Assembly (NCBI RefSeq): GCF_964355755.1
Contig: NC_092674.1
Span: 17,360,001-17,424,000 of the forward strand
Origin: Antedon mediterranea
Lineage: Eukaryota; Animalia; Echinodermata
DNA length: 64,000 nt
Reading direction: 5' to 3'
Shown: positions 818 to 57,516 of the stretch, piece by piece
Layout of the letters: each line of letters starts with the position of its first letter
How positions within the stretch are numbered: the first letter of the stretch is position 1
Translations under genes and position numbers: made by a program
The notes under the pieces: generated by a model
Seen by the model: only the letters and a program-made list of their open reading frames with translations
What the model was told of the DNA's origin: nothing
The model's database searches: none

Positions 818-853
<36 letters not shown>

Positions 854-5613: not shown

Positions 5614-5650
<37 letters not shown>

Positions 5651-8600: not shown

Positions 8601-8945
8601 AGATCAGCGAGAGAGAGATAGATCAGCGAGAGAGAGAGATAGATCATCGAGAGAGAGATAGATCAGCGAGAGAGAGATAGATCAGCGAGAGAAAGATAGA
8701 TCAGCGAGAGAGAGATAGATCAGCGAGAGAGAAATAGATCAGCGAGAAAGAGATAGATCAGCGAGAGAGAGATAGATCAGCGAGAGAGAGATAAATCAGC
8801 GAGAGAGAGACACATCAGCGAGAGAAAGACAGATCAGCGAGAGAGAGAGACAGATCAGCGAGAGAGAGAGAGACAGACAGATCAGCGAGAGAGAGAGACA
8901 GATCAGCGAGAGAGACACAGATCAGCGAAAAAGACACAGATCAGC

Positions 8946-8981
<36 letters not shown>

Positions 8982-18939: not shown

Positions 18940-18975
<36 letters not shown>

Positions 18976-21166: not shown

Positions 21167-21200
<34 letters not shown>

Positions 21201-27200: not shown

Positions 27201-28740
27201 CGAGAGAGAGAGATAGATCAGCGAGAGAGAGATAGATCAGCGAGAGAGAGATAGATCAGCGAAAGAGAGATAGATCAGCGAGAGGGAGATAGATCAGCGA
27301 GAGAGATAGATCAGCGAGAGATAGATAGATCAGCGAGAAAGAGATAGATCAGCGAGAGAGAGATAGATCAGCGAGAGAGAGATAGATCAGCTAGAGAAAG
27401 ATAGATCAGCGAGAGAGATATAGATCAGCGAGAGAGAGATAGATCAGCGAGAGAGAGATAGATCAGCGAGAGAGAGAGATAGACCAGCGAGAGGGAGATA
27501 GATCAGCGACAGAGAGATAGATCAGCGAGAGAGAGATAGATCAGCGAGAGAGAGATAGATCAGCGAGAGAGAGACAGATCAGCGAGAGAGAGAGATATAG
27601 ATCAGCGAGAGAGAGATAGATCAGCGAGAGAGAGAGATAGATCAGCGAGAGAGAGATAGAACGATCAGCGAGAGAGAGATAGATCAGCGAGAGAGAGATA
27701 GATCAGCGAGAGAGAGATAGATCAGCGAGAGAGATATAAATCAGCGAGAGAGAGAGATAGATCAGCGAGAGAGAGATAGATCAGCGAGAGAGAGAGATAG
27801 ATCAGCGAGAGAGAGATAGATCAGCGAGAGAGAGATAGATCAGCGAGATAGCGATAGATCAGCGAGAGAGAGATAGATCAGCGAGAGAGAGATAGATCAG
27901 CGAGAGAGAGATAGATCAGCGAGAGGGAGATAGATCGGGGAGAGAGAGATAGATCAGCGAGAGAGAGAGATAGATCATCGAGAGAGAGATAGATCAGCGA
28001 GAGAGAGATAGATCAGCGAGAGAGAGATAGATCAGCGAGAGAGAAATAGATCAGCGAGAGAGAGATAGATCAGCGAGAAAGAGATAGATCAGCGAGAGAG
28101 AGATAGATCAGCGAGAGAGAGATAGATCAGAGAGAGAGATAGATCAGCGATAGAGAGAGATAGATCAGCGAGAGAGAAATAGATCAGCGGGAGAGAGAGA
28201 GATAGATCGAGGAGAGAGAGATAGATCAGCGAGAGAGAGATAGATCAGCGAGAGAGAGATAGATCAGCGAGAGAGAAATAGATCAGCGAGAGAGAGATAG
28301 ATCAGCGAGAGAGAGATAGATCAGCGAGAGAGAGATAGATCAGCAAGAGAGATATAGATCAGCGAGAGAGAGATAGATCAGCGAGAGAGAGATAGATCAG
28401 CGAGAGAGAGATAGATCGGCGAGAGAGAGATAGATCAGCGAGAGAGAGAGATAGATCATCGAGAGAGAGATAGATCAGCGAGAGAGAGATAGATCAGCGA
28501 GAGAGAGATAGATCAGCGAGAGAGAGAGATAGATCAGCGAGAGAGAAATAGATCAGCGAGAGAGAGATAGATCAGCGAGAGAGAGATAAATCAGCGAGAG
28601 AGAGACACATCAGCGAGAGAAAGACAGATCAGCGAGAGAGAGACAGATCAGCGAGAGAGAGAGAGAGACAGACAGATCAGCGAGAGAGAGAGACAGATCA
28701 GCGAGAGAGACACAGATCAGCGAAAAAGACACAGATCAGC

Positions 28741-28776
<36 letters not shown>

Positions 28777-31700: not shown

Positions 31701-34700
31701 ATAGATCAGCGAGAGAGAGATAGATCAGCGAGAGAGAAATAGATCAGAGAGAGAGAGAGATAGATCAGCGAGAGAGAGATAGATCAGCGAGAGAGAGATA
31801 GATCAGCGAGAGAGAGATAGATCAGCGAGAGAGAGATAGATCAGCGAGAGAGAGATAGATCAGCGAGAGAGAGATAGATCAGCGAGAGAGAGAGAGATAG
31901 ATCGAGAGGAGAGAGATAGATCAGCGAGAGAGAGATAGATCAGCGAGACAGAGATAGATCAGCGAGAGAGAGATAGATAAGCGGGAGAGAGATAGATCAG
32001 CGAGAGAGATATAGATCAGCGAGAAAGAGATAGATCAGCGAGAGAGAGATAGATCGGCGAGAGAGAGATAGATCAACGAGAGAGAGAGATAGATCAACGA
32101 GAGAGAGATCAGCGAGAGAGATAGATCAGCGAGAGAGAGAGATAGGTCAGCGAGAGAGAGATAGATCAGCGAGAGAGAGATAGATCAGCGAGACAGAGAT
32201 AGATCAGCGAGAGCGAAATACATCGGGGAGAGAGAGATAGATCAGCGAGAGAGAGATAGATAAGCGAGAGAGAGATATATCAGCGAGAGAGAGATAGATC
32301 AGCGAGAGAGAGATAGATCAGCGAGAGAGATAGATAGATCAGCGAGAGAGAGAGATAGATAGATCAGTTAGAGAGAGATAGATCAGCGAGAGAGAGAGAT
32401 AGATAAGCCAGAGAGAGATAGATCAGCGAGAGAGAGATAGATCAGTGAGAGAGAGAGATAGATCAGCGAGAAAGAGATAGATCAGCGAGAGAGAGATAGA
32501 TCAGCGAGAGAGAGAGATATAGACCAGCGAGAGGGAGATAGATCAGCGAGAGAGAGATAGATCAGCGAGAGAGAGATAGATCAGCGAGAGAGAGATAGAT
32601 CAGCGAGAGAGAGATAGATCAGCGAGAGAGAGATAGATCATCGAGAGAGAGATAGATCAGCGAGAGAGATAGATCAGCGAGAGAGAGATAGATCAGCGAG
32701 AGAGAGATAGATCAGCGAGAGAGAAATAGATCAGCGAGAGAGAGATAGATCAGAGAGAGAGAGATAGATCAGCGATAGAGAGAGATAGATCAGCGAGAGA
32801 GAAATAGATCAGCGGGAGAGAGAGAGATAGATCGAGGAGAGAGAGATAGATCAGCGAGAGAGAGATAGATCAGCGAGAGAGAGATAGATCAGGGAGAGAG
32901 AGATAGATCAGCGAGAAAGAAATAGATCAGCGAGAGAAAGATTGATCAGCGAGAGAGAGATAGATCAGCGAGCAAGAGATAGATCAGCGAGAGAGAGATA
33001 GATCAGCGAGAGAGAGATAGATCAGCGAGAGAGAGATAGATCAGCGAGAGAGAGAGATAGATAATCGAGAGAGAGATAGATCAGCGAGAGAGAGATAGAT
33101 CCGCGAGAGAGAGATAGATCAGCGAGAGAGAGATAGATCAACGAGAGAGAAATAGATCGGCGAGAGAGAGATAGATCAGCGAGAGAGAGATAGATCAGCG
33201 AGAGAGAGATAGATCAGAGAGAGAGAGATAGATCAGCGATAGAGAGAGATAGATCAGCGAGAGAGAAATAGATCAGCGGGAGAGAGAGAGATAGATCGAG
33301 GAGAGAGAGATAGATCAGCGAGAGAGAGAGAGATCAGCGAGAGAGAGATAGATCAGCGAGAGAGAGATAGATCAGCGAGAGAGAGATAGATCAGCGAGAA
33401 AGAGATAGATCAGCGAGAGAGAGATAGATCAGCGAGAGAGAGCGATAGATCAGCGAGAGAGAGAGGTAGATCAGCGAGAGAGAAAGAGATAGATCAGCGA
33501 GAGAGAGATAGATCAGCGAGAGAGAGAGATAGATCAGCGAGAGAGAGATAGATCAGCGAGAGAAAGAGAGAGATAGATCAGCGAGAGAGAGATAGATCAG
33601 CGAGAGAGATATAGATCAGCGAGAGAGAGATAGATCAGCGAGAGAGAGATAGATCAGCGAGAGAGAGAGAAAGATCAGCGAGAGAGAGATAGATCAGCGA
33701 GAGAGAGATAGATCAGCGAGAGAGAGATAGATCAGCGAGAGAGAGATAGATCAGCAAGAGAGAGATAGATCAGCGAGAGAGAGATAGATCAGAGAGAGAG
33801 AGATAGATCAGCGATAGAGAGAGATAGATCAGTGAGAAAGAGAGAGAGATAGATCAGCGAGAGAGAGATAGATCAGCGAGAGAGAGATAGATCAGCGAGA
33901 GGGAGATAGATCAGCGAGAGAGAGAGAGATAGATCAGCGAGAGAGAGATAGATCAGCGAGAGAGAGATAGATCAGCGAGAGGGAGATAGATCAGCGAGAG
34001 AGAGATAGGTCAGCGAGATAGAGATAGATCAGCGAGAGAGAGATAGATCAGCGAGATAGAGATAGATCAGCGAGAGAGAGATAGATCAGCGAGAGAGAGA
34101 TAGATCAGTGAGAGAGAGATAGATGAGCGAGAGAGAGAGATAGATGAGCGAGAGAGAGATAGATCAGCGAGAGAGAGATAGATCAGTGAGAGAGAAATAG
34201 ATCAGCGAGAGAGAGATAGATCAGCGAGAGAGAGAGAGATAGATCAGCGAGAGAGAGATAGATCAGCGAGAGAGAGATAGATCAGCGGGAGAGAGATAGA
34301 TCAGCGAGAGAGAGATATAGATCAGCGAGAGAGAAATAGATCAGCGGGAGAGAGAGAGATAGATCGAGGAGAGAGAGATAGATCAGCGAGAGAGAGATAG
34401 ATCAGCGAGAGAGAGATAGATCAGCAAGAGAGAGATAGATCAGCGAGAGAGAAATAGATCAGCGAGAGAGAAATAGATCAGCGAGAGAGAGAGATAGATC
34501 AGCGAGAGAGAGAGAGATAGATCAGCGAGAGAGAGATAGATCAGCGAGAGAGAAATAGATCAGCGAGAGAGAGATAGATCAGCGAGAGAGATATAGATCA
34601 GCGAGAGAGAGATAGATCAGCGAGAGAGAGAGATAGATCATCGAGAGAGAGATAGATCAGCGAGAGAGATAGATCAGCGAGAGAGAGATAGATCAGCGAG

Positions 34701-37700
34701 AGAGAGATAGATCAGCGAGAGAGAAATAGATCAGCGAGAGAGAGATAGATCAGCGAGAGAGAGATAGATCAGCGAGAGAGAGATAGATCAGCGAGAGAGA
34801 GATAGATCAGAGAGAGAGAGATAGATCAGCGATAGAGAGAGATAGATCAGCGAGAGAGAAATAGATCAGCGGGAGAGAGAGAGATAGATCGAGGAGAGAG
34901 AGATAGATCAGCGAGAGAGAGAGAGATCAGCGAGAGAGAGATAGATCAGCGAGAGAGAGATAGATCAGCGAGAGAGAGATAGATCAGCGAGAGAGAGATA
35001 TATCAGCGAGAGAGAGATAGATCAGCGAGAGAGAGCGATAGATCAGCGAGAGAGAGAGGTAGATCAGCGAGAGAGAAAGAGATAGATCAGCGAGAGAGAG
35101 ATAGATCAGCGAGAGAGAGAGATAGATCAGCAAGCGAGAGATAGATCAGAGAGAGAGAGAGAGAGAGAGATAGATCAGCGAGAGAGAGATAGATCAGCGA
35201 GAGAGAGATAGATCAGCGAGAGAGAGATAGATCAGCGAGAGAGAGATAGATCAGCGAGAGAGAGATAGATCAGCGAGAGAAAGATAGATCAGCGAGAGAG
35301 ATAAAGATCAGCGAGAGAGAGATAGATCAGCGAGAGAGAGATAGATCAGCGAGAGAGAGAGAAAGATCAGCGAGAGAGAGATAGATCAGCGAGAGAGAGA
35401 TAGATCAGCGAGAGAGAGATAGATCAGCGAGAGAGAGATAGATCAGCGAGAGAGAGATAGATCAGAGAGAGAGAGATAGATCAGCGATAGAGAGAGATAG
35501 ATCAGTGAGAGAGAGAGATAGATCAGCGAGAGAGAGATAGATCAGCGAGAGAGAGATAGATCAGCGAGAGGGAGATAGATCAGCGAGAGAGAGATAGATC
35601 AGCGAGAGAGAGATAGATCAGCAAGAGAGAGCGATAGATCAGCGAGAGAGAGAGGTAGATCAGCGAGAGAGAGAAAGATAGATCAGCGAGAGAGAGATAG
35701 AACAGCGAGAGAGAGATAGATCAGCGAGAGAGAAAGAGATAGATCAGCGAGAGAGAGATAGATCAGCGAGAGAGAGATAGATCAGCGAGAGAGAGAGATA
35801 GATCAGCGAGAGAGAGATAGAACGATCAGCGAGAGAGAGATAGATCAGCGAGAGAGAGATAGATCAGCGAGAGAGAGATAGATCAGCGAGAGAGAGATAG
35901 ATCAGCGAGAGAGAGATAGATCAGCAAGAGAGAGATAGATCAGAGAGAGAGAGAGAGATAGATCAGCGATAGAGAGAGATAGATCAGCGAGAGAGAAATA
36001 GATCAGCGAGAGAGAGAGATAGATCGAGGAGAGAGAGATAGATCAGCGAGAGAGAGATAGATCAGCGAGAGAGAGATAGATCAGCGGGAGAGAGATAGGT
36101 CAGCGAGAGAGAGATAGATCAGCTAGAGGGAGATAGATCAGCGAGAGAGAGATAGATCAGCGAGAGAGAGAGATAGATCAGCGAGAGAGAGCGATAGATC
36201 AGCGAGAGAGAGAGGTAGATCAGCGAGAGAGAGAGAAAGATAGATCAGCGAGAGAGAGATAGATCAGCGAGAGAGATAGATAGATCAGCGAGAGAGAGAT
36301 AGATCAGCGAGAGAGAGAGAGAGAGATAGATCAGCGAGAGAGAGATAGATCAGCGAGAGAGAGATAGATCAGCGAGAGAGAGATAGATCAGCGAGAGAAA
36401 GATAGATCAGCGAGAGAGATATAGATCAGCGAGAGAGAGATAGATCAGCGATAGAGAGAGATAGATCAGCGAGAGAGAGATAGATCAGCGAGAGAGAGAT
36501 AGATCAGCGAGAGAGAGATATATCAGCGAGAGAGAGAGAGATAGATCAGCGAGAGAGAGATAGATCAGCGAGAGAGAGATAGATCAGCGAGAGAGAGATA
36601 GATCAGCGAGAGAGAGATAGATCAGCGAGAGAGAGATAGATCAGCGAGAGAGAGATAGATCAGCGAGAGAAAGATAGATCAGTGAGAGAGAGATAGATCA
36701 GCGAGAGAGAGATAGATCAGCGAGAGAGAGATAGATCAGCGAGAGGGAGATAGATCAGCGAGAGAGAGATAGATCAGCGAGAGAGAGATAGATCAGCGAG
36801 AGAGATATAAATCAGCGAGAGAGAGATAGATCGAGGAGAGAGAGATAGATCAGCGAGAGAGAAATAGATAAGCGAGAGAGAGATAGATCAGCGAGAGAGA
36901 GATAGATCAGCGAGAGAGAGAGAGAGAGACAGATCAGCGAGAGAGACACAGATCAGCGAAAAATACACAGATCAGCGAGAGAGAGAGAGAGAGACAGACA
37001 GACAGATTAGCGAGAGAGAGAGACAGATCAGCGAGAGAGGGACAGATCAGCGAGAGAGAGAGACAGATTGGCTAGAGAGAGACAGATCAGCGAGAGAGAG
37101 ACAGATCGGCTAGAGAGAGACAGGTCAGCGAGAGAGAGACAGATCAGCGAGAGAGAGATAGATCAGCGAGAAGGAGATAGATCAGCGAGAGAGAGATAGA
37201 TCAGTGAGAGAGAGATAGATCAGCGAGAGAGAGATAGATCAGCGAGAGAGAGAGATAGATCAGCGAGAGAGAGATAGATCAGCGAGAGAGAGATAGATCA
37301 GCGAGAGAGAGATAGATCAGAGAGAGAGAGAGAGAGAGATAGATCAGCGAGAGAGAGATAGATCAGCGAGAGAGAGAAAGATCAGCGAGAGAGAGATAGA
37401 TCAGCGAGAGAGAGATAGATCAGCGAGAGAGAGAGAGATAGCTCAGCGAGAGAGAGAAAGATCAGCGAGAGAGATAGATCATCGAGAAAGAGATAGATCA
37501 GCGAGAGAGAGATAGATCAGCGAGACAGAGATAGATCAGCGAGAGAGAGATAGATCTGCGAGAGAGAGATAGAGCAGCGAGAGAGAGATAGATCAGTGAG
37601 AGAGAGATAGATCAGCGAGAGAGAGATAGATCAGCGAGAGAGAGAAAGATCAGCGAGAGAGAGATAGATCAGCGAGAGAGAGATAGATCAGCGAGAGAGA

Positions 37701-38127
37701 GAGATAGATCAGCGAGACAGAGATAGATCAGCGAGAGAGTGATAGATCAGCGAGAGAGAAATAGATCAGCGAGAGAGAGATAGATTAGCGAGAGAGAGAT
37801 AGATCAGCGAGAGAGAGATAGATCAGCGAGAGAGAGAGATAGATCAGCGAGAGAGAGACAGATCAGCGAGAGAGAGATAGATAAGCGAGAGAGAGATAGA
37901 TCAGCGAGAGAGATATAGATCAGCGAGAGAGAGATAGATCAGCGAGAGAGAGATAGATCAGTGAGAGAGAGAGATAGATCAGCGAGCGAGAGATAGATCA
38001 GCGAGAGAGAGATAGATCAGCGAGAGAGAAAGATAGATCAGCGATAGAGAGAGATAGATCAGCGAGAAAGAGATAGATCAGCGAGAGAGAGAGATAGATC
38101 AGCGAGAGAGAGATAGATCAGCGAGGG
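1..38127 (+). repeat. 19-bp tandem satellite, consensus CAGCGAGAGAGAGATAGAT (~2000 units), open at the 5' window edge
   Basis: A period of 19 is directly visible, with 17/21-bp variants from (GA)n slippage. 15 of 19 bases are purines on +, and each unit has one GATC and one CpG. It ends abruptly at ...GATCAGCGAGGG|AGCGCACAATG. Confidence 0.99.
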
Positions 38128-38383
38128 AGCGCACAATGCAACTTTTCAATGCTAATCAGCGGCGGCCGATCAGCATATCGCGATGCAACCTGTTTTTTGG
38201 GTGCAATTATGCTGATTTCAGATGCACTCGCGTCGATTGAAGAATTTTCAGCAGTTAGGTAATCACTGGCATTCAGCCTCTTTCACTAATTTTATAAATA
38301 AACCCATCCGGACGCGGTGTTTTTTTAAATTTTTAAATTCATCTGTATTGATCTGATCGTTAAAACAGACTGTTTGTAGAAAG
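38128..38383 (+). promoter_or_regulatory. Probable promoter/5' UTR exons of the recombinase gene
   Basis: CpG-containing patch in AT-rich DNA. Candidate donor AG|GTAATC at 38259 and a 15-nt micro-exon 38369-38383 (AACAG|...AAAG|GTAAGG). Lies upstream of the first in-exon ATG at 39165. Inferred; no transcript evidence. Confidence 0.4.
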
Positions 38384-42100: not shown

Positions 42101-45100
42101 TATGTTCAATCAAATGTTAAATTAAATTTTTTGTTTTATTTCAGACCAAGAAATAGTGTGTAGAGTAGTAATGTATTTCCAACTATTATAATTGTTTGTT
42201 TATTGTTTATTTTTTTTTAAAATATGTATGTTAATTACAAAAATCTTTTTTTTAGAGTTCGTAGAGTATCACCACTCTGTCTCAGGTCCAAATTTTGAGG
42301 TGTACATGCAGTACACTTTAAAATTATTTATTATTTTGTTAGTATTTAATAGAATGTGTGTTTGTTTTATTTTAATCTATGCTTAAATCCACCACATTCA
42401 AATTCGGATGTGGCATACACTTTCATATTAACATCATCCACCAGATAACTGCATGCATGTTTATTTGTTTAGTAGTTTATAGAATGTGTTTGTATGTTTG
42501 TTTTTTTTTTATTTAATCTATGCTAATTTTTCAGATTCAAATCCTGATGTGGCATACACTTTCATATTAACATCATCCACCAGATAACTGCATGCATGTT
42601 TATTTATTTAGTAGTTTATAGAATGTGTTTGTGTGTTTGTTTTATTTTAATTTAATCTATGCTAATCACTCAGATTCAAATCCTGATGTGGCATACACTT
42701 TCATATTAACATCATCCACCAGATAACTGCATGAATGTTTATTTGTTTAGTAGTTTATAGAATGTGTTTGTATGTTTGTTTTATTTTAATTTAATCTATG
42801 CTAATCACTCAGATTCAAATCCTGATGTGGCATACACTTTCATATTAACATCATCCACCAGATAACTGCATGCATGTTTATTTGTTTACTAGTTTATAGA
42901 ATGTGTTTGTGTGTTTGTTTTTTAAAAATTTAATCTATGCTAATTTTTCAGATTCAAATCCTGATGTGGCATACACTTTCATATTAACATCATCCACCAG
43001 ATAACTGCATGCATGTTTATTTGTTTAGTAGTTTATAGAATGTGTTTCAGTTTTTGTTTTTTTTAATTTAATCTATACTAATTTTTCAGATTCAAATTCG
43101 GATGTGGCATACACTTTCATATCTCACATCATCCACCAGATAACTGCATGCATGTTTTTTTTGTTTAGTAGTTTATAGAATGTGTTAATCCATGCTAATC
43201 ACTAAAATCTATTTCTTTTATAGAATGCTATCATAGCTCAGCTGGTAGAGCATCGGCACTCTTGTCGAAGGTCTCGGGTTCAAATCCTGATGTGGCATAC
43301 ACTTTCATATTAACATCATCCACCAGATAACTGCATGCATGTTTATTTGTTTAGTAGTTTATAGAATGTGTTTGTGTGTTTGTTTTATTTTAATTTAATC
43401 TATGCTAATTTTTCAGATTCAAATCCTGATGTGGCATACACTTTCATATTAACATCATCTACCAGATAACTGCATGCATGTTTTTTTGTTTAGTAGTTTA
43501 TAGAATGTGTTTGTGTGTTTATTTTACTTTAATTTAATCTATGCTAATCACTCGGATTAAAATCCTGATGTGGCATACACTTTCATATTAACATCATCCA
43601 CCAGATAACTGCATGCATGTTTATTTGTTTAGTAGTTTATAGAATGTGTTTGTGTGTTTATTTTTGTTAATTTAATCTATGCTAATCACTCAGATTCAAA
43701 TCCTGATGTGGCATACACTTTCATATTAACATCATCCACCAGATAACTGCATGCATGTTTTTTTTGTTTAGTAGTTTATAGAATGTGTTAATCTATGCTA
43801 ATCACTAAAATCTATTTCTTTTATAGAATGCTATCATAGCTCAGCTGGTAGAGCATCGGCACTCTTGTCGAAGATCTCGGGTTCAAATCCTGATGTGGCA
43901 TACACTTTCATATTAACATCATCCACCAGATAACTGCATGCATGTTTATTTGTTTAGTAGTTTATAGAATGTGTTTGTGTTTTGTTTTATTTTAGTTTAA
44001 TCTATGCTAATTTTTCAGATTCAAATCCTGATGTGCCATACACCTTCATATTAACATCATCCACCAGATAACTGCATGCACGTTTTTTTGTTTAGTAGTT
44101 TATAGAATATGTTAATCCATGCTAATCACTAAAATCTATTTCTTTTATAGAATGCTATCATAGCTCAGCTGGTAGAGCATCGGCACTCTTGTCGAAGGTC
44201 TCGGGTTTGAATCCTGATGTGGCATACACTGTCATATTAACATCATCCACCAGATAACTGCATGCATGTTTTTTTGTTTAGTAGTTTATAGAATGTGTTT
44301 GTGTGTTTATTTTATTTTAATTTAATCTATGGTAATCACTCAGATTCAATTCCTGATGTGGCATACACTTTCATATTAACATCATCCACCAGATTACTGC
44401 ATGCATGTTTATTTTTTATTTACTTTGTAATTGTTTTTAAATACTTTAATTTTCGCTGTATGTCTTAATCCATGCTAATTTCTTAGCTTAATTGTGATGC
44501 AAATCAAAGTTATATAGGTAAGTTATACATTTACATTTTTTTTTTGGTTGGCAGTCCTGAATATATTAAGTTCAGACAACAAAAAGTCTGTAAATTTGCA
44601 GGTAACCTTTTATTTATAAAATTATTATAAAGTTTCATTTTTTGATAGATAATTAATAGTTTCAATTTAAAAATAAATGTGTACCTTTTATTGACAAAAA
44701 CAATTCATTTTATCTATGCTGGAGAATTATAATTACCTAATTTCTACTACTAACTACTACATTTAGGTCAAATACAAAGTTCTCTTTATCCCAAATAATT
44801 ACTATTAATTTAGATAACCAATCCCAGACACTAATAAATAAAATTACTGTAATAACAATTGTAATATAATAATAATTATGTCATGGGTCAACTTTCGGAT
44901 CCTGAACTTTGTTTTCCAAGAATGGACTTATTTTTAATGTCATTAAAGTCTTTTTAACTTCTATAGAGCCATCTACAACAATGAGCCGGTTCAAGGCCTA
45001 CATGTTAGAAACTTTAAAAATACCGGCAAAGCATGCAGCACAGGTCATAAAGGGGATAGAGGGAATTTGGAGTGAAGCAGGGGAGAAGGGATATTCTCCA

Positions 45101-48100
45101 AAGATATTAAAGACGTAACATTTTTTTATTACAATTATATTAATAGAAAAAGGAAGAAGCCAAACAATTTAAATTTCATTTAGCATTAAAATAAAAAGTT
45201 TTCTTAAATTTCAGCTATAGATTGTGAGTATAATGTATTATTGCCTGCTACCTTCATTTTCTTGAAGGAAGAAATAAATGTTAAGTTGAATTTGAATTGA
45301 ATTTTAAACCATGTGAAGTTACCATGAATCACTTGATCCTAATTACCATATTGAAGATATTACATATTTTAATATTTGATTTTTGTGTATTGTACTCTTC
45401 TTTTCATTTTTTTAAAAATAATTGTTTAGTGCTGTTAGCCATTTACAATTGAAGCTTGCTGGCTCCACGTTAAGACACTACCTGTGCTCCTTTGTGAAAA
45501 TATTGGACTACATTTCAATATACGAATCTAAATCTGTTTCGCTTGCCGAAATATACAAGTGCAAAGATGCATGCAAAGGCCTGAGCAAAGCTCTCAGAAA
45601 ACGCATTTCTGAAGAGAAGGCCAAAAAGCACGAAGAAATTGAAGGTAACATCTACTGAATTAAAGTTTTTCTTTTCATCAAATGTTTGAAAGTCATATTA
45701 TTTAAATTGAAATAATAATAATAATATGTTTTAATTTTCTTTTAAGGTGATCTAGTTTCGGCGGACGAACAATCCCATTATCTCAGAAAATCTGAGAAAA
45801 CAATTAAAAGCATAGTTGGTATGTTTTTTATATTATTTCTTTATCCATAAAATGTATTGATAATCATAAGATTTATCATATTGTATGTTATTAGGTAAAG
45901 ACTAGGAGAAACTTGGAGAAATAACTAAAACTAACCTTAATCCTAGCTTATTTAGTCATTGTGTTAGTAAAGGTAATTAGGTATAGGTAAAATGTTGATT
46001 ATGATATTGTTCTAAGGTTCACCTGTATTTACCAGGACAAGGTCACTATGTAAATGATCAAAATCCTTTTACTAAACTAAGTACAGTAGTAGTTAATTGA
46101 TTTCCAAGTACCCTTAATCTATCTGGGTGCATTCTTGCACAATATTATTATGGTTGTCTGGCTGGCTATCCTTTTACTTTTACTATTGATATATAAAAAT
46201 GTAGTATGTTACCTTTTATTTCAGGCATTGGATGATTGGCAATTTTAATTTTATTAAATTAAACTAGGAGAATGGGAAAAGTAAACTATTTTAAAGGCAA
46301 AAATATTCACACATAATTTTATAATAAATAAATAACCTTATTTCTGAACATTTACATCTAGTTCAAATCCTGATGTGTCATACATCATCCACTCAATAAC
46401 TGTGTATTTAATTTTTAATATTTTGTTTTAGTGGTTTATAGAATGTGTTAATCCATGCTAATCACTAAAATCTATTTCTTTTATAGAATACTATCATAGC
46501 TCAGCTGGTAGAGCATCGGCACTCTTGTTGAAAGTCTCAGGTTCAAATCCTGATGTGGCATACACTTTCATATTAACATCATCCACCAGATAACTGCATG
46601 CATGTTTTTTTTTTGTTTAGTAGTTTATAGAATGTGTTTGTGTGTTTATTTTACTTTAATTTAATCTATGCTAATCACTCAGATTCAAATCCTGATGTGG
46701 CATACACTTTCATATTAACATCATCCACCAGATAACTGCATGCATGTTTATTTGTTTAGTAGTTTATAGATTGTGTTAATCCATGCTAATCACTAAAATC
46801 TATTTCTTTTATAGAATGCTATCATAGCTCAGCTGGTAGAGCATCGGCACTCTTGTCGAAGGTCTCGGGTTCAAATCCTGATGTGGCATACACTTTCATA
46901 TTAACATCATCCACCAGATAACTGCATGCATGTTTATTTATTTAGTAGTTTATAGAATGTGTTTGTGTGTTTGTTTTATTTTAATTTAATCTATGCTAAT
47001 CACTCAGATTCAAATCCTGATGTGGCATACACTTTCATATTAACATCATCCACCAGATAACTGCATGAATGTTTATTTGTTTAGTAGTTTATAGAATGTG
47101 TTTGTATGTTTGTTTTATTTTAATTTAATCTATGCTAATCACTCAGATTCAAATCCTGATGTGGCATACACTTTCATATTAACATCATCCACCAGATAAC
47201 TGCATGCATGTTTATTTGTTTAGTAGTTTATAGAATGTGTTTGTATGTTTGTTTTATTTTAATTTAATCTATGCTAATCACTCAGATTCAAATCCTGATG
47301 TGGCATACACTTTCATATCTAACATCATCCACCAGATAACTGCATGCATGTTTATTTATTTAGTAGTTTATAGAATGTGTTTGTGTGTTTGTTTTATTTT
47401 AATTTAATCTATGTTAATCACTCAGATTCAAATCTGATGTGGCATACACTTTCATATTAACATCATCCACCAGATAACTGCATGAATGTTTATTTGTTTA
47501 GTAGTTTATAGAATGTGTTTGTATGTTTGTTTTATTTTAATTTAATCTATGCTAATCACTCAGATTCAAATCCTGATGTGGCATACACTTTCATATTAAC
47601 ATCATCCACCAGATAACTGCATTAATGTTTATTTGTTTAGTAGTTTATAGAATGTGTTTGTGTGTTTGTTTTTTTTAAATTTAATCTATGCTAATTTTTC
47701 GGATTCAAATCCTGATGTGGCATACACTTTCATATTAACATCATCCACCAGATAACTGCATGCATGTTTTTTGTTTAATAGTTTATAGAATGTGTTAATC
47801 CATGCTAATCACTAAAATCTATTTCTTTTATAGAATGCTATCATAGCTCAGCTGGTAGAGCATCGGCACTCTTGTCGAAGGTCTCGGGTTCAAATCCTGA
47901 TGTGGCATACACTTTCATATCTCACATCATCCACCAGATAACTGCATGCATGTTTATTTATTCAGTACTTTATAGAATGTGTTTGTGTGTTTATTTTTGT
48001 TAATTTAATCTATGCTAATCACTCGGATTCAAATCCTGATGTGGCATACACTTTCATATCTAACATCATCCACCAGATAACTGCATGCATGTTTATTTGT

Positions 48101-51100
48101 TTAGTAGTTTATAGAATGTGTTTCAGTTTTTGTTTATTTTAATTTAATCTATACTAATTTTTCAAATTCAGATGTGACATACACTTTCATATCTCACATC
48201 ATCCACCAGATAACTGCATGCATGTTTATTTGTTTAGTAGTTTATAGAATGTGTTTGTGTGTTTGTTTTATTTTAGTTTAATCTATGCTAATTTTTCAGA
48301 TTCAAATCCTGATATGGCATACACTTTCATATCTCACATCATCCACCAGATTACTGCATGCATGTTTATTTGTTTAGTAGTTTATAGAATGTGTTTGTGT
48401 GTTTATTTTACTTTAATTTAATCTATGCTAATCACTCAGATTTAATTCATGATGTGGCATACACTTTCATATCTCACATCATCCACCAGATAACTGCATG
48501 CATGTTTATTTATTTAGTAGTTTATATAATGTGTTTGTATGTTTGTTTTATTTTAATTTAATCTATGCTAATCACTCAGATTCAAATCCTGATGTGGCAT
48601 ACACTTTCATATTAACATCATCCACCAGATAACTGCATGCATGTTTTTGTTTAGTAGTTTATAGAATGTGTTAATCCATGCTAATCACTAAAATTTATTT
48701 CTTGTATAGAATGCTAACATAGCTCAGCTGGTAGAGCATCGGCACTCTAGTCGAAGGTCTCCGGTTCAAATCCTGATCTGGCATACACTTTCATTTTTAT
48801 TTTGTTTTAGTAGTTTATAGAATGCTTTTTTCAATACTAATTAGTCATCAAATCCTGAATATTAACATCCACCTGACATGCACATGTTTATTTCTTTTAT
48901 TTCATTTTATTTTTAATTTTTGCTGATCATAAAAATCTATTTCTTTTAGAAAATGCTATTGGTAAGAAATCCATATTTTATGGGGTTTTTTTTCGGTCTT
49001 GCTCCTTCACTTATACAAATCTACTGATGTATAAGTTTGATTCAACAGATTTTTAGTACTAAAGTGGTTCCTCAACCTAATTTAGTTTTTATTAAAAAAA
49101 CTGTTTATCAAACTTTCAGAAACGATAAAGAACGGGGAGAGTTTGGAAAACCCATCTAAGCGGTTCCTCCGCATTCATATTATGCTACTTCTGTCCATGA
49201 ACAATGGCTGTAGGACTGGTGTTCTGGCAAATGCTACATTGGAGCAGTACTATAAAAGAACAGCAGCCACAAATGGCATGTCAGTTATGAAAGTGAGTAA
49301 AATATACATTTTTTAATGTATTCTTGAATATATGAATTAACAGTTTACATGTTTTGGTTGTTGTACACAGTTTAAGTTGTTCAGTGGGCTATCATTACAC
49401 AAATCAACAGCTACAGAAATATGATGAAGTCGATGAAGTAAGCTACAGAACAGTAAGAGTATTGTGAATTATAAAACATCCTTAGCAACCAATTTTGTTA
49501 TGTTGTCTATATGTTATATGTTAATAATCATTACTGTAAGTGATTTTGCAGGTTTCAAAGCATAAAACATCTTGTAAATTTGGTGCAGCAAATTTAGTGA
49601 TAACTGAAGAACTGGCTGAATTAATAGAGATTTACATAAAGTACTGTAGGCCAATACAATCGGCAACCGACCACCTGTTCCTGAGTTGCACAGGGGCATC
49701 AATTAGATGCGCTCAGGAAATGACCCGCCACTGGGCGGAAGTAACACACAGCACCAGGCCCATCAATCCCACCAATTTAAGAAAGGCAGCAGCCACTCTA
49801 GTATGTGATTGTTACTTATTGCTTTAAACCTATCAATAGATGAGAAATATTATTTTCAAGTGATAAACCATCAGTTATATTTTGTTTTGGGAATTATGTG
49901 GGACACAATTTGTAAGTGTAGAATAATTCATTACATATTACCTTCTCTTTAAATAATTTCATCAGTCCTGGGGTCACTGCGACGAAAGGGAAAGAGTTGT
50001 GGTTGCTGACCATATGGCCCACAAATTATCAACGCAAGAGGCATACTATAAAGCCACGCAATCCCGGGAGACGGCTGTAAGAGCCCACAATCTTATAGCA
50101 GCAAACCGTCAACTCGGGAGAAGTGGGGTAAGATTTAATTTCTGTCTAAAATGTTTGTATCCCGAAAGATGTTTATTTTTTATTGAAACATAACATAATA
50201 TAAAGAATATATCTAACACTTTAATAATTAGCAATCAACAAGAAAACAAACATTGCATCTATTAACTAAAATTTTACTTTACTTTTTTTAATGTGCTATG
50301 TACACTTTTTCAGAATATAAATGAAACTGCTGATGTCCAGGTAAGGATGGCCATTACTTTCATATAAAAAACAAAAGAATGCAAACTGTATAATTTATGT
50401 GTTTTATAAATGCTGTATAACTACCAATTAAAGGAACACAATTTCGCATCTTAAATCATTTTAATATTAAGCTTTTATTATCCCAAATGCAATACATACT
50501 TCACCTTAAGGTATATCTTTTCTAGGTAGCATTTTCACATGTGGAGATGAAATGCTGGTAAGATACAATTTTCACATAAATATATATTTTTCCAGTGTCC
50601 ATTTATTTACAGGACTGAATTCTATGTAATCATTATTATTATCTTGTATACCTCTTTACGAATAATGAAACAAGTAATGGTATTATGTACAATATTATTT
50701 TACATTCACCAGGAAATTTCTCAAGCACATGCGAATGAAGCGCCATCATCTGTAAGTATTCAATAATTGTTAATAAGGACACATTTGTAAAGCATCAAAC
50801 TAATATTGCCAGACCACACTCCAGTCCACACTCTTTTTAATTGGTACTGCAATATATGGTCAACGTTGATGTAGTATTTTTAAACAATTTGTATGAGTAC
50901 TGTACATTATCGTTTTAGTACTGCAGTATGATTCCTTGGGTGATGGTAGGATTTTGAGTCTCCCAATATATTGCACTAATGTTTTTACCAGGTCAGCAAA
51001 GTTTCCTGGTATATTTGGCTTTACTGTACTTGTTTAATTAGTTTTTATTTCAGGTCAGCAAAATGTCCCTTGTACTTGTATGGACATTCTTTAACTGTTT

Positions 51101-52501
51101 TTATCAGGTCTTGGTATCTCAAAAAACAGGAAAATGTTTACTTTTTAAATTTGCACATTACTCTTTGTATTCTCTAGTTTGTATGCTTAGTTAATTTATT
51201 TATACAAACTAATTTGAGGCCTCCCCAAGATAACTTCTGTAGTTTCTAAAGTAATTGTTCAAATCCTCACTTTGCAGTTGTATATTGTTTAAATGTAGTA
51301 GTTTTCAGAATGATTTTTCCATACTAAATATCAACATCTTCTTCTGTTATAGAATGCTATCATAGCTCAGTTGGTAGCTTAGTAGTTTATAGAATGTGTT
51401 TGTGCTTTTTTTTTTATTTAATCTATACTAATTTTTCAGATTCAAATCCTGATATGGCATACACTTTCATATCTCACATCATCCACCAGATAACTGCATG
51501 CATGTTTATTTGTTTAGTAGTTTATAGAATGTGTTTGTGTGTTTGTTTTATTTTAGTTTAATCTATGCTAATTTTTCAGATTCAAATCCTGATGTGGCAT
51601 ACACCTTCATATTAACATCATCCACCAGATAACTGCATGCACGTTTTTTGTTTGTTTAGTGGTTTATAGAATGTGTTGATCCATGCTAATCACTAAAATC
51701 TATTTCTTTTATAGGATGCTATCATAGCTCAGCTTGTAGAGCATCGGCACTCTGGTCTCGGGTTCAAATCCTGATGTGCCATACACTTTCATATTAACAT
51801 CATCCACCAGATAACTGCATGCACGTTTTTTGTTTGTTTAGTGGTTTATAGAATGTGTTAATCCATGCTAATCACTAAAATCTATTTCTTTTATAGGATG
51901 CTATCATAGCTCAGCTGGTAGAGCATCGACACTCTTGTCTCGGGTTGAAATCCTGATGTGGCATACACTTTTATTTTAACATCAACCACCAAATAACTGC
52001 ATGCATTTTTAGTTTTGTGTAGTACTGAGTTTATAGAATGTGTTTATTTTATTTTAATTTAATCTATGCTAATCACCCATAATCAAATCCATATGTGGCA
52101 TACAATTTCATATTAACATCATCCACCAGATAATCTTACAAGCACTTTAATTACTCCTGGTATTATTGTCATTATTATTGTTATCTAAAACATCAATACA
52201 ATTCTCATTTGAAATACTTAAAGTACATTTTCTGTAAAACTTATTTCACCTATTAATTTGACTTTATTATTTTTCTACTTTCAATATAACTAGTCTGTAA
52301 GCCATCCTCTATGTATGTTTAATGTTTATGTATTATCTATTTAATTGTAATAATCACCATCACATTATTAAATACAATTTTTATTTTTTTTTGTAGGCAA
52401 GAGAAGTCTATAACAAAAATCCAGTTCTCCATTACTCTGAATTTCAACAGTTATATGACAAAATGAGGAGGATCCATCCAAAGGTAGGTTTATGTTTTTA
52501 A
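39165..52501 (+). CDS. Multi-exon tyrosine recombinase (phage-integrase fold) with N-terminal acidic tract and two C2H2 zinc fingers; Crypton-like DNA transposon protein
   Basis: Phase-compatible exons: 40505-40717, 40906-40935, 41129-41153, 41477-41604; then 44967-45114, 45215-45223, 45430-45644, 45747-45818, 48950-48961, 49120-49292, 49552-49800, 49966-50127, 50314-50340; probable 50713-50751 and 52397-52483 (reading through gives TAA at 52499-52501). Putative first coding exon 39165-39188 (MDRFCNSP|GTAAGT). Motifs NGCRTG, VSKHKT, PTNLRKAAAT, ADHMAH, TQEAYY. Joins at 39.2-40.5 kb and 41.6-44.9 kb are unresolved. Confidence 0.85.
40505..40717 (+). CDS. Exon: Glu-rich acidic low-complexity tract of the recombinase
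   Basis: TTAATAG acceptor and GTAAGT donor at 40718. The frame reads SEDGEFEKKENKEEENMEEEE...EEVVE, and the split codon AT|G joins exon 40906 in frame. Confidence 0.75.
41477..41604 (+). CDS. Exon: C2H2 zinc finger 1
   Basis: CTACAG|...AG|GTGAGT. Translates NRKLLTCILCGRISRYLASHLEKAHKII (CxxC...L..H....H), in frame with exon 41129-41153. Confidence 0.85.
41953..42068 (+). CDS. Exon: C2H2 zinc finger 2
   Basis: TTCTAG|...CCT|GTAAGT. Translates KARHSCSVPGCSAKNLARYDMHLQRKHKFP. Its start phase does not directly match the finger-1 exon, so an intervening micro-exon or a lesion is needed. Confidence 0.75.
42335..44410 (+). repeat. Intronic tandem array 1 of tRNA-derived repeat (139-bp short unit and ~188-bp unit with full tRNA-like head)
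   Basis: CAGATTCAAATCCTGATGTGGCATACAC recurs at 42532, 42671 and 42810 (period 139). Full heads at 43227, 43830 and 44154. Confidence 0.95.
43227..43297 (+). pseudogene. tRNA-like/SINE head (representative copy; others at 43830, 44154, 46490, 46818, 47837, 48713, and truncated at 51356, 51718, 51900)
   Basis: A box TAGCTCAGCTGG, D stem GCTC/GAGC, stem TCGGC/GTCGA with a 6-nt loop, B box GGTTCAAATCC in T stem TCGGG/CCTGA. The acceptor stem is imperfect (GCTATCA/TGTGGC). Confidence 0.85.
44967..45818 (+). CDS. Four exons (one of 9 nt) encoding the probable core-binding (SAM-like) helical domain of the recombinase
   Basis: 44967-45114, 45215-45223, 45430-45644 and 45747-45818 join in frame: MSRFKAYMLETLKIPAKHAAQVIKGIEGIW...TYRFAVSHLQLKLAGSTLRHYLCSFVKILDY...GDLVSADEQSHYL. 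The STLRHYLxS motif resembles integrase N-terminal helices. Confidence 0.8.
46358..48900 (+). repeat. Intronic tandem array 2 of the same tRNA-derived repeat
   Basis: Same 139/~188-bp units with degenerate units at both edges; fills most of intron 45819-48949. Confidence 0.95.
49120..50127 (+). CDS. Three exons encoding the tyrosine recombinase catalytic domain
   Basis: Arg 49212-49214 (NGCRTGVLAN), Lys 49564-49566 (HKT), Arg 49780-49782 (TNLRK), His 50020-50022 (MAH), Tyr 50044-50049 (EAYY). Both internal introns are phase 0 with canonical GT-AG, and there are no stops. Confidence 0.92.
51350..52135 (+). repeat. Intronic tandem array 3 of the tRNA-derived repeat
   Basis: Same units; the heads at 51718 and 51900 share a short deletion in the anticodon-arm/variable region. 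Confidence 0.92.
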
Positions 52502-52570
52502 TTTCAGTGGCATGCAGTAGCAAGAAATTATTTAAAAGCATTGCAAGTTTTCTATAGAACTATGAAGATT

Positions 52571-55503
52571 TGCAAATACATAGTAGAATAATCAGTGAAT
52601 TGTCTAGTCAAAATGTAGTTGATTAGTCAGTAACAGTTTAGATAATTTAAACTGCAAATACATAGTAGAATAATCAGTGAATTGTCTAGTCGAAATGTAG
52701 TTGATTAATCAGTAACAGTTTAGAGAATTTAAACTGCAAATACATAGTAGAATAATCAGTGAATTGTCTAGTCAAAATGTAGTTGATTAGTCAGTAACAG
52801 TTTAGATAATTTAAACTGCAAATACATAGTAGAATAATCAGTGAATTGTCTAGTCGAAATGTAGTTGATTAATCAGTAACAGTTTAGAGAATTTAAACTG
52901 CAAATACATAGTAGAATAATAAGTGAATTGTCTAGTCAAAAGTAGTTGATTAGTCAGTAACAGTTTAGATAATTTAAACTGCAAATACATAGTAGAATAA
53001 TCAGTGAATTGTCTAGTCAAAAGTAGTTGATTAGTCAGTAACAGTTTAGATAATTTAAACTGTGTGTAAATAGTACAATAATCAATGAATTGTCTAGTCA
53101 AAATACAGTTGATTATTCAGTAACAGTTTAGAGAATTTAAACTGCAAATACATAGTAGAATAATCAGTGAATTTTTTAGTCAAAAGACAGTTGATTATTC
53201 AGTAACAGTTTAGAGAATTTAAACTGCAAATACATAGTAGAATAATCAGTGATTTTTTTAGTCAAAAGACAGTTGATTATTCAGTAACAGTTTAGAGAAT
53301 TTAAACTGCAAATACATAGTAGAATAATCAGTGAATTTTTTAGTCAAAAGACAGTTGATTATTCAGTAACAGTTTAGAGAATTTAAACTGCAAACACATA
53401 GAATAATCAGTGAATTGTCTAGTCAAAAGACAGTTGATTATTCAGTAACAGTTTAGATAATTTAAACTGCAAATACATAGTAGAATAATCAGTGAATTGT
53501 CTAGTCAAAATGTAGTTGATTAGTCAGTAACAGTTTAGATAATTTAAACTGCAAATACATAGTAGAATAATCAGTGAATTGTCTAGTCAAAAGACAGTTG
53601 ATTATTCAGTAACAGTTTAGAGAATTTAAACTGTAAATACATAGTAGAATAATCAGTGAATTGTTTAGTCAAAAGACCGTTTATTATTCAGTAACAGTTT
53701 AGAGAATTTAAACTGCAAATACATAGTAGAATAATCAGTGAATTGTTTAGTCAAAATACAGTTGATTATTCAGTAACAGTTTAGATAATTTAAACTGCAA
53801 ATACATAGTAGAATAATCAGTGAATTGTTTAGTCAAAAGACAGTTGATTAGTCAGTAACAGTTTAGGGAATTTAAACTGTGTGTAAATAGTAGAATAATC
53901 AGTGAATTGTCTAGTCAAAAGACCGTTTATTATTCAGTAACAGTTTAGATAATTTAAACTGCAAATACATAGTAGAATAATCAGTGAATTGTTTAGTCAA
54001 AAGACAGTTGATTAGTCAGTAACAGTTTAGGGAATTTAAACTGTGTGTAAATAGTAGAATAATCAGTGAATTGTCTAGTCAAAAGACCGTTTATTATTCA
54101 GTAACAGTTTAGATAATTTAAACTGCAAATACATAGTAGAATAATCAGTGAATTGTTTAGTCAAAAGACAGTTGATTAGTCAGTAACAGTTTAGGGAATT
54201 TAAACTGTGTGTAAATAGTAGAATAATCAGTGAATTGTCTAGTCAAAAGACCGTTTATTATTCAGTAACAGTTTAGATAATTTAAACTGCAAATACATAG
54301 TAGAATAATCAGTGAATTGTTTAGTCAAAAGACAGTTGATTAGTCAGTAACAGTTTAGAGAATTTAAACTGTGTGTAAATAGTAGAATAATCAATGAATT
54401 GTTTAGTCAAAATACAGTTGATTATTCAGTAACAGTTTAGAGAATTTAAACTATGTGTAAATAGTAGAATAATCAATGAATTGTCTAGTCAAAATACAGT
54501 TGATTATTCAGTAACAGTTTAGAGAATTTAAACTGCAAATACATAGTAGAATAATCAGTGAATTGTCTAGTCAAAATGTAGTTGATTAGTCAGTAACAGT
54601 TTAGAGAATTTAAACTGCAAATACATAGTAGAATAATCAGTGAATTGTCTAGTCAAAATGTAGTTGATTATTCAGTAACAGTTTAGATAATTTAAACTGT
54701 AAATACATAGTAGAATAATCAGTGAATTGTTTAGTCAAAAGACCGTTTATTATTCAGTAACAGTTTAGAGAATTTAAACTGCAAATACATAGTAGAATAA
54801 TCAGTGAATTGTCTAGTCGAAATGTAGTTGATTAGTCAGTAACAGTTTAGAGAATTTAAACTGCAAATACATAGTAGAATAATCAGTGAATTGTCTAGTC
54901 AAAAGTAGTTGATTAGTCAGTAACAGTTTAGATAATTTAAACTGCAAATACATAGTAGAATAATCAGTGAATTGTTTAGTCAAAAGACAGTTGATTAGTC
55001 AGTAACAGTTTAGAGAATTTAAACTGTAAATACATAGTAGAATAATCAGTGAATTGTTTAGTCAAAAGACCGTTTATTATTCAGTAACAGTTTAGAGAAT
55101 TTAAACTGTAAATACATAGTAGAATAATCAGTGAATTGTTTAGTCAAAAGACAGTTGATTATTCAGTAACAGTTTAGAGAATTTAAACTGTAAATACATA
55201 GTAGAATAATCAGTGAATTGTTTAGTCAAAAGACAGTTGATTATTCAGTAACAGTTTAGATAATTTAAACTGCAAATACATAGTAGAATAATCAGTGAAT
55301 TGTCTAGTCAAAAGTAGTTGATTAGTCAGTAACAGTTTAGAGAATTTAAACTGCAAATACATAGTAGAATAATAAGTGAATTGTCTAGTCAAAAGACAGT
55401 TGATTATTCAGTAACAGTTTAGAGAATTTAAACTGCAAATACATAGTAGAATAATCAATGGACTGTATAGTCAAAATGTAGTCAGTAACAGTTTAGATAA
55501 TTT
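52571..55503. repeat. 82-bp tandem satellite (~36 units)
   Basis: Unit AAACTGCAAATACATAGTAGAATAATCAGTGAATTGTCTAGTCAAAATGTAGTTGATTAGTCAGTAACAGTTTAGATAATTT. TACATAG occurs at 52741 and 52823. An alternating dimer variant (CTGTGTGTAAAT/GACCGTTT) spans ~53.85-54.35 kb. Confidence 0.98.
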
Positions 55504-56012
55504 CCAAGGATATCCTTATAACCCTTTTTAAAAATTGGAGTCACTTGTGCCACCTTCAAGTCATCATGAAAAACACCTGTGACAAGTTATAAGTTAATAA
55601 TATATGTTAATGGCTTTGCAATAACAATAGATGAATCCTTAATTAATCTAGCAGATAACTGGTCATGTCAAGTGGACTTTTTTATATCTATATTTCTTAA
55701 TAATTCTTTAAATTCTAAAACAGGTTTCCAAAATAAAAGAGGAACTAATTGAATTTTTCAAATAATCATTGGAACTTTTTTGAGAACAATCAATCTTGCT
55801 TGCTAATTTCTGCCGATATTTACAAAATAATCATTAAACAAGTCGGCTTTTTGTTCATTGGAATTACATTCAATATTAACATCATTTAATGATTCTTTAA
55901 GTTTATCTGGAATAATTTCATGAACAGTCTGACTTTTGCCTTTAAGAATACTATTTATAATTCCCCCATGTTTTAGTAGTATTACTATTTGTTTTTTACT
56001 TTTCATAAACAA
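55504..56012 (-). mobile_element. Degenerate CR1/L2-group non-LTR retrotransposon ORF2 fragment (region preceding RT)
   Basis: The minus strand reads QKADLFNDYFVNIG and KST*HDQLSARLIKDSSIVIAKPLTYIINL*LVTGVFHDDLKVAQVTPIFKKG, with in-frame stops. Confidence 0.85.
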
Positions 56013-57510: not shown

Positions 57511-57516
57511 GTTATT

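What the first reader, a model, noticed from the sequence alone, without database searches (positions are those of the whole stretch)
42335..52135. Three introns of the recombinase carry arrays of whole tRNA-like heads interleaved with tRNA 3'-end-only units
Seen: ~188-bp units have a full A-box/B-box tRNA-like head, whereas 139-bp units keep only TTCAAATCCTGATGTGGCA (T loop to acceptor end) with the same downstream body. The family occurs in three separate introns, always on +, and nowhere else in the window. Established: many prokaryotic tyrosine integrases use tRNA 3' ends as att sites and duplicate that segment, and SINEs also derive from tRNA. Inference: most simply a SINE-derived satellite, but it could be a Pol III-transcribed small-RNA array or att-like substrates tied to the recombinase.
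Basis: partly seen in the sequence, partly recalled or inferred. Interest (0 to 1): 0.7.

Follow-up and report, generated by a model that had tools for sequence, protein, structure and literature searches.

The report
tRNA-like arrays riding a recombinase transposon
Three introns of a recombinase gene that likely belongs to a jumping DNA element hold 36 tandem copies of a broken tRNA-like unit, which apparently travel with the element instead of being scattered through the genome; they are likely passenger repeats, although six keep intact-looking RNA polymerase III promoter boxes that could shield the gene from the satellite DNA beside it.

Summary
Observation confirmed: 36 units, all on +, in three predicted introns of a tyrosine-recombinase (YR) gene; 9 carry a whole tRNA-like head (7 pass Rfam's tRNA cut-off) and 27 keep only its 3' part. 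The gene belongs to a multi-copy element with mostly synonymous changes; its left end abuts a 38-kb GA-rich satellite, as described for CryptonV (membership untested). Public contigs show array edges joined to the same introns in a second organism, and repeat depth matches element-borne arrays alone, so an abundant genome-wide SINE or satellite is not supported. The att reading also fails: tail units are internal deletions that keep the head's own upstream flank, and 26 of 27 lose the B-box G. Best reading: a pseudo-tRNA Pol III unit, tandemly amplified and homogenised across introns, carried as cargo (0.6). Bolder reading: the heads act as TFIIIC/Pol III barriers against satellite heterochromatin (0.2). 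Six heads keep both promoter boxes, and a third organism's head contig appears unchanged over 151 nt. Expression, the element's right end and whole-genome distribution were not testable. No look-alike sequence in earlier scan notes; other notes describe Cryptons in satellites, without tRNA arrays.

The parts
1..38129 (.). 19-bp GA-rich satellite that abuts the element's left end; candidate target sequence
   Evidence: TRF 1963 copies; summed contig depth 3.1e7 in X1 and 6.6e5 in X5 but 4.75 and 2.67 in X6 and X9 in the first bin
38130..38330 (+). Left end of the multi-copy YR element (terminus placed at about 38130-38135)
   Evidence: X1 contig starts at 38135 at depth 1066; X9 contig starts at 38131; X5 contig 38084-38366 spans the junction at depth 11.7, equal to element depth
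41477..42068 (+). Two zinc-finger-like exons of the YR gene (41477-41604, 41953-42068); their joining phase was not resolved
   Evidence: second finger matches fish homolog P0020, E 3e-05
42258..55765 (+). Predicted 13-exon open chain of the YR gene: core-binding region, catalytic exons 49120-49292 (R), 49552-49800 (HKT..LRK), 49966-50127 (MAH..YY), and C-terminal exons
   Evidence: open for 443 codons; homology; homolog fold hits XerH, XerA, Tn1549 Int, Cre
42331..44479 (+). Array 1 in intron 42300-44486: 14 units, heads at 43227, 43830, 44154
   Evidence: left edge joined to the upstream exon in organism B (record 24)
46361..48959 (+). Array 2 in intron 45819-49119: 17 units, heads at 46490, 46818, 47837, 48713; decayed units at both edges
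   Evidence: left-edge sequence appears as a loose end in organism B (X6 at 51837, matched by eye)
51282..52140 (+). Array 3 in intron 50752-52396: 5 units, heads at 51718 and 51900 (7-nt loss in the anticodon arm), 5'-only head fragment 51356-51377
   Evidence: right edge joined to exon 52397-52483 in X1, X6 (records 7, 22)
46818..46888 (+). Modal tRNA-like head (identical at 43227 and 47837): A box and B box intact, cloverleaf is the minimum-energy fold
   Evidence: Rfam 38.8 bits; fold (z -0.78); box scan
52571..55476 (.). 82-bp satellite, 35.5 copies, filling the last predicted intron (52484-55723)

Best explanation
The arrays are likely passenger cargo of a multi-copy, likely mobile (Crypton-type) tyrosine-recombinase element: 36 copies of a pseudo-tRNA unit and its deletion derivative sit in three predicted introns and are likely copied whenever the element is. 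Inferred history: a tRNA-derived Pol III unit (upstream flank, 71-nt pseudo-tRNA, about 44-nt trailer, T-run) entered an intron and duplicated in tandem. An internal deletion of 71 bp plus a 24-bp T-rich gain made the 139-bp headless unit. Unequal exchange and gene conversion spread both types between introns and kept the cores alike while the edges decayed. Shown: unit anatomy, the deletion relationship, equal divergence within and between arrays, array edges at the same introns in two organisms. Inferred: mobility of the element, its homing on the GA satellite, neutrality of the arrays.
For: The tail unit aligns to the head unit on both sides of one 71-nt gap. Tail units differ by 6.2-7.3% within arrays and 6.5-7.9% between arrays, with 4 identical pairs between arrays 1 and 2; edges are decayed. 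26 of 27 tail units lack the B-box G; 3 of 9 heads have lost an A or B box and 2 of 9 have lost part of the anticodon arm. The same gene holds an unrelated 82-bp satellite in another intron and a 47-bp array just downstream, so it gathers tandem repeats generally. Element depth in X1 is flat at about 1100-1500 from 38135 on, with co-existing variants at depths 147-970; 9 of 11 listed differences in the catalytic exons are synonymous. Single-contig ratios to element depth: head 6.3-7.0 and body 24-27 in X5, head 4.5-4.8 in X1, against 6 and 22 copies of such words in the window. Summed depth on one unit in X1 is 101x, 216x and 140x against 100-125x, 272-313x and 127-162x simulated for element-borne arrays only. 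SINE-derived tandem arrays are a known kind (PMC10702118, abstract and Discussion read).
Against: Six heads keep both promoter boxes. Organism C's head-unit contig shows 6 differences from the window copy over 151 nt, the number that separates that copy from the modal unit, and 5 are listed and match. The same run differs from the window at 117 of 2288 positions outside the repeats. That hints at selection on the head unit. The simulation is sensitive: counting only pieces of 40 nt or more predicts 14x, well under the 101x seen, and the tool warns that contig depth is no copy number. A few long loose ends in the repeat (X5 48656; X6 51388, 51425; X9 51535, 51577) show some partial copies in other contexts, and 13 loose-end rows were hidden. 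Organism B has no cover over 38198-38345 and patchy cover to 40400, and the right end was not found, so mobility rests on copy number and one end.
Confidence: 0.6

Rival explanations
1. The arrays are cargo kept by selection: the heads would bind TFIIIC/Pol III and act as tDNA barriers that keep the recombinase gene transcribable inside satellite heterochromatin, with headless units as spacers.
For: The element abuts a 38-kb satellite, also in a second sample. Six heads have intact A and B boxes. Heads per element look similar in three organisms (depth ratios 4.5-7 in A, 4.4-8.1 in B, 2.3-4.7 in C), while summed depth on one unit varies from about 4-7x in C to over 40x in A. The head unit appears unchanged in organism C over 151 nt (P 4e-4 at the pooled 5.1% divergence, 0.02 at 2.5%). 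[quoted passage not shown]
Against: Headless units lack the B-box G (26 of 27), so they are poor extra-TFIIIC sites. The heads lie inside the gene, 5-14 kb from the satellite junction, not between the satellite and the promoter. This satellite is not seen in B or C. Within the window, heads vary as much as their flanks (2.2% against 1.5-2.2%, few events). The cross-species comparison is one low-depth contig.
Confidence: 0.2
2. The heads are transcribed by Pol III into discrete RNAs of about 115-160 nt (pseudo-tRNA plus trailer) that do something for the element, for example guide or regulate the recombinase.
For: Intact boxes; T-runs 44-86 nt after the tRNA end in six of the nine head units and a cloverleaf minimum-energy fold.
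Against: The trailer has no unusual match to the element's left end (10 nt, 54 of 500 shuffles as good) or to the satellite (6 nt, 495 of 500). The folds do not beat shuffles (z -0.09 to -1.28). Terminator position varies among heads.
Confidence: 0.1
3. The repeat is an abundant genome-wide SINE or satellite that happened to land three times in this gene.
For: tRNA head plus unrelated body is SINE-like anatomy; a few loose ends lie outside the element; summed-depth expectations are model-dependent.
Against: Only 11 of 247 X1 contigs laid were partly unmatched, and no loose end among the 24 shown falls at a head's 5' boundary. Single-contig depth ratios match the window's own counts. No poly(A) run of 8 or more. 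Array edges are shared with organism B.
Confidence: 0.07
4. Tail units are att-like recombination substrates, as prokaryotic integrases duplicate tRNA 3' ends.
For: The tail unit's T-arm is an imperfect inverted repeat with a 9-nt centre, the general shape of a YR site.
Against: That hairpin is inherited from the T-arm and does not beat shuffles (z -1.28). Tail units are flanked on both sides by head-unit DNA, unlike attL/attR. The visible element end is at the satellite. Active sites inside the gene's own introns would delete its exons.
Confidence: 0.03

Closest known systems
CryptonV (Kapitonov and Jurka 2012, Repbase Reports; seen only as cited in PMC8869645, passage read)
   Same: YR-encoding DNA transposons, some inserted specifically in microsatellites; here a YR element starts at the edge of a GA-rich 19-bp satellite.
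   Different: No CryptonV sequence was available to compare. Only one end was seen. No tRNA-like intron arrays are mentioned in the passages read.
CryptonA / CryptonI (Kojima and Jurka 2011, PMC3212892, abstract and passages read)
   Same: Animal YR DNA transposons without terminal repeats.
   Different: Those have no C-terminal domain; this protein has N-terminal zinc-finger-like motifs and a conserved C-terminal segment, and its exons did not hit DUF3504 in Pfam.
SINE-derived satellites of squamates (sSat; PMC10702118, abstract and Discussion read)
   Same: Tandem units cut from a Pol III-type repeat, homogenised within and between loci, with longer parent-like units present.
   Different: sSats occur at many chromosomal loci and derive from abundant SINEs. 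Here whole and deleted units are interleaved, appear confined to one element's introns, and no abundant parent SINE is seen.
Helenus / Cassandra (TRIMp3; PMC10886601, abstract, passages and section 3.5 read)
   Same: A mobile element that carries a non-functional tRNA-like sequence with conserved A and B boxes.
   Different: Those are short LTR retroelements that need the promoter to make their RNA template. Here the carrier is a DNA element, the units are intronic and tandem, and no PBS or polypurine tract was found.

Membership tests
Crypton-type YR DNA transposon | Encodes a tyrosine recombinase with catalytic residues | tested here: met
   R, K, R, H and Y motifs align with homologs; the HxxR histidine is T/S across the family. 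Homolog P0016 hits PF00589 at 6e-06; a homolog's model ranks only YRs in its top ten, E 0.012-0.059, probability 0.72-1.0, none under 0.001. The window exon alone scores E 0.13.
Crypton-type YR DNA transposon | Multi-copy with a defined end; no reverse transcriptase | tested here: met
   Several co-existing variants in one sample and a sharp left edge at 38130-38135. No RT-like frame seen in 38130-55765; the RT-like fragments further right lie inside a separate insertion.
Crypton-type YR DNA transposon | Both ends defined; short direct repeats or none; empty sites | not testable with these tools
   No genome held; the left-end 12-mer does not recur in the window.
CryptonV | Insertion into microsatellite-type repeats | tested here: inconclusive
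   Left junction with the satellite in the window and in X5 at element-level depth; no right junction; satellite not seen in B or C.
CryptonV | YR groups with Repbase CryptonV proteins | not testable with these tools
   No CryptonV sequences in the libraries searched (searches returned unnamed echinoderm, mollusc and fish proteins).
Functional tRNA gene | Complete cloverleaf with 7-bp acceptor stem and 7-nt anticodon loop | tested here: not met
   One-base gaps in both; ARAGORN finds none.
Type 2 Pol III promoter | A box and B box at tRNA spacing, downstream T-run | tested here: met
   6 of 9 heads have both boxes; T-runs follow. 1 of 27 tail units has a B box. Sequence only; activity untested.
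tRNA-derived SINE | Many dispersed monomers with target duplications and a simple-repeat tail | tested here: not met
   Few foreign junctions and no depth excess in contigs; no poly(A); no clear flanking duplication. Indirect: no assembly.
Helenus (TRIMp3) | LTR pair with PBS and polypurine tract | tested here: not met
   No purine run of 10 or more on +, only A-runs on -; the TGG sites found lie within the tRNA-like head or its 3' remnant.
tRNA-targeting integrative element (att in tRNA 3' end) | Partial tRNA 3' copy at the element end, next to non-tRNA-locus DNA | tested here: not met
   Partial copies are internal, intronic and keep the head's own upstream flank.

The most novel reading that the evidence does not exclude
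A satellite-homing tyrosine-recombinase transposon carries its own tDNA insulators: intronic pseudo-tRNA genes, kept at a few copies per element across species, recruit TFIIIC/Pol III and hold the recombinase gene open inside heterochromatin. It would be a DNA transposon that captured a chromatin barrier to survive in its safe-haven target.
Probability: 0.2. Interest if true: 0.75.

Novelty: new variant of a known kind. Interest (0 to 1): 0.42.

Why it matters
As passenger DNA, it is a clean case of a tRNA-derived satellite that is born, homogenised and inherited inside one transposon family, shared between species, and it marks a little-described animal YR family with zinc fingers. If the heads are functional, it answers how elements that target satellites stay expressed, and gives a small natural test system for TFIIIC barriers in an invertebrate. 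Nine literature searches listed no paper describing tRNA-like arrays in Crypton introns. The library lacks most subscription journals and Repbase Reports, so this is weak evidence of novelty.

Tried and rejected
No whole genome is held, so dispersal was tested only through public contigs. No RNA holder listed; X5 is only guessed to be RNA and covers introns, so it says nothing on expression. Exact repeat motif: 0 hits in metagenome contigs, 1 isolated 19-nt hit in viral contigs (L001; not examined, taken as chance). YR relatives in metagenome and viral contigs: 127 and 56 pattern matches, none confirmed. A word-indexed search with the single exon found nothing; Atlas hits were all under 0.9; a PDB sequence search found nothing. 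Top hits P0002 and P0008 are repeat artefacts and P0007 had no matched stretch; all three were dropped. Guide-RNA idea rejected on the shuffle test. TRIM/Helenus array rejected. A right terminus matching the left one was not found in the window. In one search the satellite swamped X1's tables, so its loose ends say nothing on the tRNA repeat. PMC7290008 (passages) was not relevant; PMC4455052 and PMC5753468 (passages) only list CryptonV by name. A 2020 review could not be read. Supplements were not opened; Crypton sequences in the supplement of PMC3212892 might help classification.
Full report
Observation. The window is AT-rich animal-type DNA: a 19-bp GA-rich satellite fills 1-38129 and several tandem arrays follow. 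A both-strand scan found 36 T-loop anchors, all on +, in three clusters of 14, 17 and 5 units, with decayed edges at 42331-44479, 46361-48959 and 51282-52140. Nine units carry a whole head and 27 do not. Seven heads pass Rfam's tRNA gathering score (30.7-38.8 bits against 29) and an eighth scores 24.3. ARAGORN calls none, and the Rfam alignment shows one base missing in the acceptor 3' strand and one in the anticodon loop, so these are pseudo-tRNAs whose isotype I could not assign. The modal head folds to a cloverleaf but not better than shuffles (z -0.78). Six of nine heads keep both an A box and a B box (box patterns recalled).

The host gene. Exons at 49120-49292, 49552-49800 and 49966-50127 carry the YR motifs and align colinearly with proteins named from Anneissia japonica, Amphiura filiformis and Argopecten irradians; further homologs come from four fish genera. 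One homolog hits Pfam Phage_integrase at 6e-06. A model of another ranks only YRs in its top ten (XerH, XerA, Tn1549 integrase), with E-values 0.012-0.059, none under 0.001. The family has zinc-finger-like motifs in front and a conserved C-terminal segment. A 13-exon GT-AG chain reads open for 443 codons and places the arrays in three separate introns. It is a prediction, contains one 37-bp intron, and skips a micro-exon where this copy differs from the majority contig by a 10-nt gap. Earlier notes on this genome call it a feather star; I did not test that beyond the homolog names.

The element. Nine runs from three coded organisms hold the stretch; I laid four, one per study. In X1, depth is flat at about 1100-1500 from 38135 onward, with co-existing variants at depths from 147 to 970, some 10-12% divergent, which indicates several copies. 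Of 11 listed differences in the three catalytic exons, 9 are synonymous; in a zinc-finger exon, 4 of 8 (only the best-supported 40 rows per call were shown). A contig from a second sample spans the satellite junction at element-level depth, and organism C's contig starts at 38131. Some CryptonV families are reported to insert in microsatellites (PMC8869645, passage), so this works like CryptonV, but membership is untested. The right end was not found, organism B lacks cover over part of the left end, and the satellite is not seen in B or C.

Are the arrays tied to the element? In organism B one contig runs from the exon at 42258 into array 1 (record 24), another from array 3's last unit into the next exon (record 22), and a loose end matches array 2's left edge by eye. 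Organism C holds both repeat and gene, but no junction was seen. Only 11 of 247 X1 contigs were partly unmatched, most of those shown at non-repeat places; none of the 24 loose ends shown (13 hidden) lies at a head's 5' edge, though five long ones in X5, X6 and X9 show partial copies elsewhere. Single-contig depth ratios are 6.3-7.0 for heads and 24-27 for bodies in X5 and 4.5-4.8 for heads in X1, against word counts of 6 and 22 in the window. Summed depth on one unit in X1 is 101x on average, 216x and 140x at two sites; a unitig simulation with element-borne arrays only gives 100-125x, 272-313x and 127-162x if pieces of 25-31 nt count, but 14x if only pieces of 40 nt or more count. The tool warns that contig depth is no copy number, so this is supporting, not decisive.

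Origin of the tail units. A head unit and a tail unit align on both sides of a single 71-nt gap, with a 24-nt T-rich gain in the tail unit. The tail unit therefore keeps the head's own upstream flank, which an att-type duplication would not. The T-arm's last 5' base is changed, so 26 of 27 tail units lack the B-box G. Tail units are as alike between arrays (6.5-7.9%) as within them (6.2-7.3%), as in concerted evolution of SINE-derived satellites (PMC10702118, Discussion). A T-run of five or more precedes the head's flank in 8 of 9 cases, suggesting an ancestral tandem Pol III unit with its own terminator. The unit has no unusual match to the element end or the satellite and no PBS, polypurine tract or poly(A), which excludes Helenus-type TRIMs (PMC10886601).

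Signs of function. Organism C's head-unit contig has 6 differences from the window copy over 151 nt; exactly 6 separate that copy from the modal unit, and the 5 listed match. The same run differs at 117 of 2288 non-repeat positions, giving P 4e-4, or 0.02 for its closest pieces; the window copy's private changes inflate that divergence a little. The dominant body variant in B and C differs from A's (table 4), which argues against simple contamination. Heads per element look similar in the three organisms. TFIIIC-bound tRNA genes act as heterochromatin barriers in yeasts (PMC10530723, passages). Against: this rests on one low-depth contig, heads within the window vary as much as their flanks, a third of them have lost a box, and the gene also collects unrelated satellites.

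Verdict. The feature is real and linked to the recombinase element, not through att sites. Passenger cargo 0.6, selected barrier 0.2, functional small RNA 0.1, dispersed SINE or satellite 0.07, att substrate 0.03. New variant of known kinds; interest 0.42. No paper describing this arrangement was listed in nine searches, and no look-alike sequence or nearby note was found among earlier scan findings.

Noticed in passing
window 1-38129: The 19-bp GA-rich satellite is extremely abundant in organism A's runs and essentially unseen in B and C, although all three hold the YR element.
   Followed up: partly
window 57171-58753: A 1.6-kb insertion with about 30-bp terminal inverted repeats (88% complementary) and an apparent TTA duplication interrupts the 47-bp array; it holds decayed RT-like fragments. 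The Harbinger-like reading is from recalled features.
   Followed up: partly
window 52571-55476 and 56019-57157: 82-bp satellite in the last predicted intron and a 47-bp higher-order array downstream of the gene; they share a short TAATCAGT word. Whether they also travel with the element was not tested.
   Followed up: no
window 38530-39030: A 500-bp region built of CCTAGG/CTAG palindromes near the element's left end, ahead of the gene; raised depth and many loose ends suggest similar DNA elsewhere.
   Followed up: no
window 44465-44486 and 48950-48961: Repeat-derived sequence supplies a branch-point-like motif just before a predicted acceptor, and a decayed unit forms a possible in-frame 12-nt micro-exon; every unit contains acceptor-like signals.
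   Followed up: partly
window 61539-62455: Broken reading frames that look like a decayed mobile-element gene; no Pfam hit and Atlas hits under 0.9.
   Followed up: partly
   Followed up: no
window 38150-38220: Three ATCAGC words (two on +, one on -) just inside the left end; the same word occurs in the satellite unit. Candidate recombinase binding sites, significance not tested.
   Followed up: no
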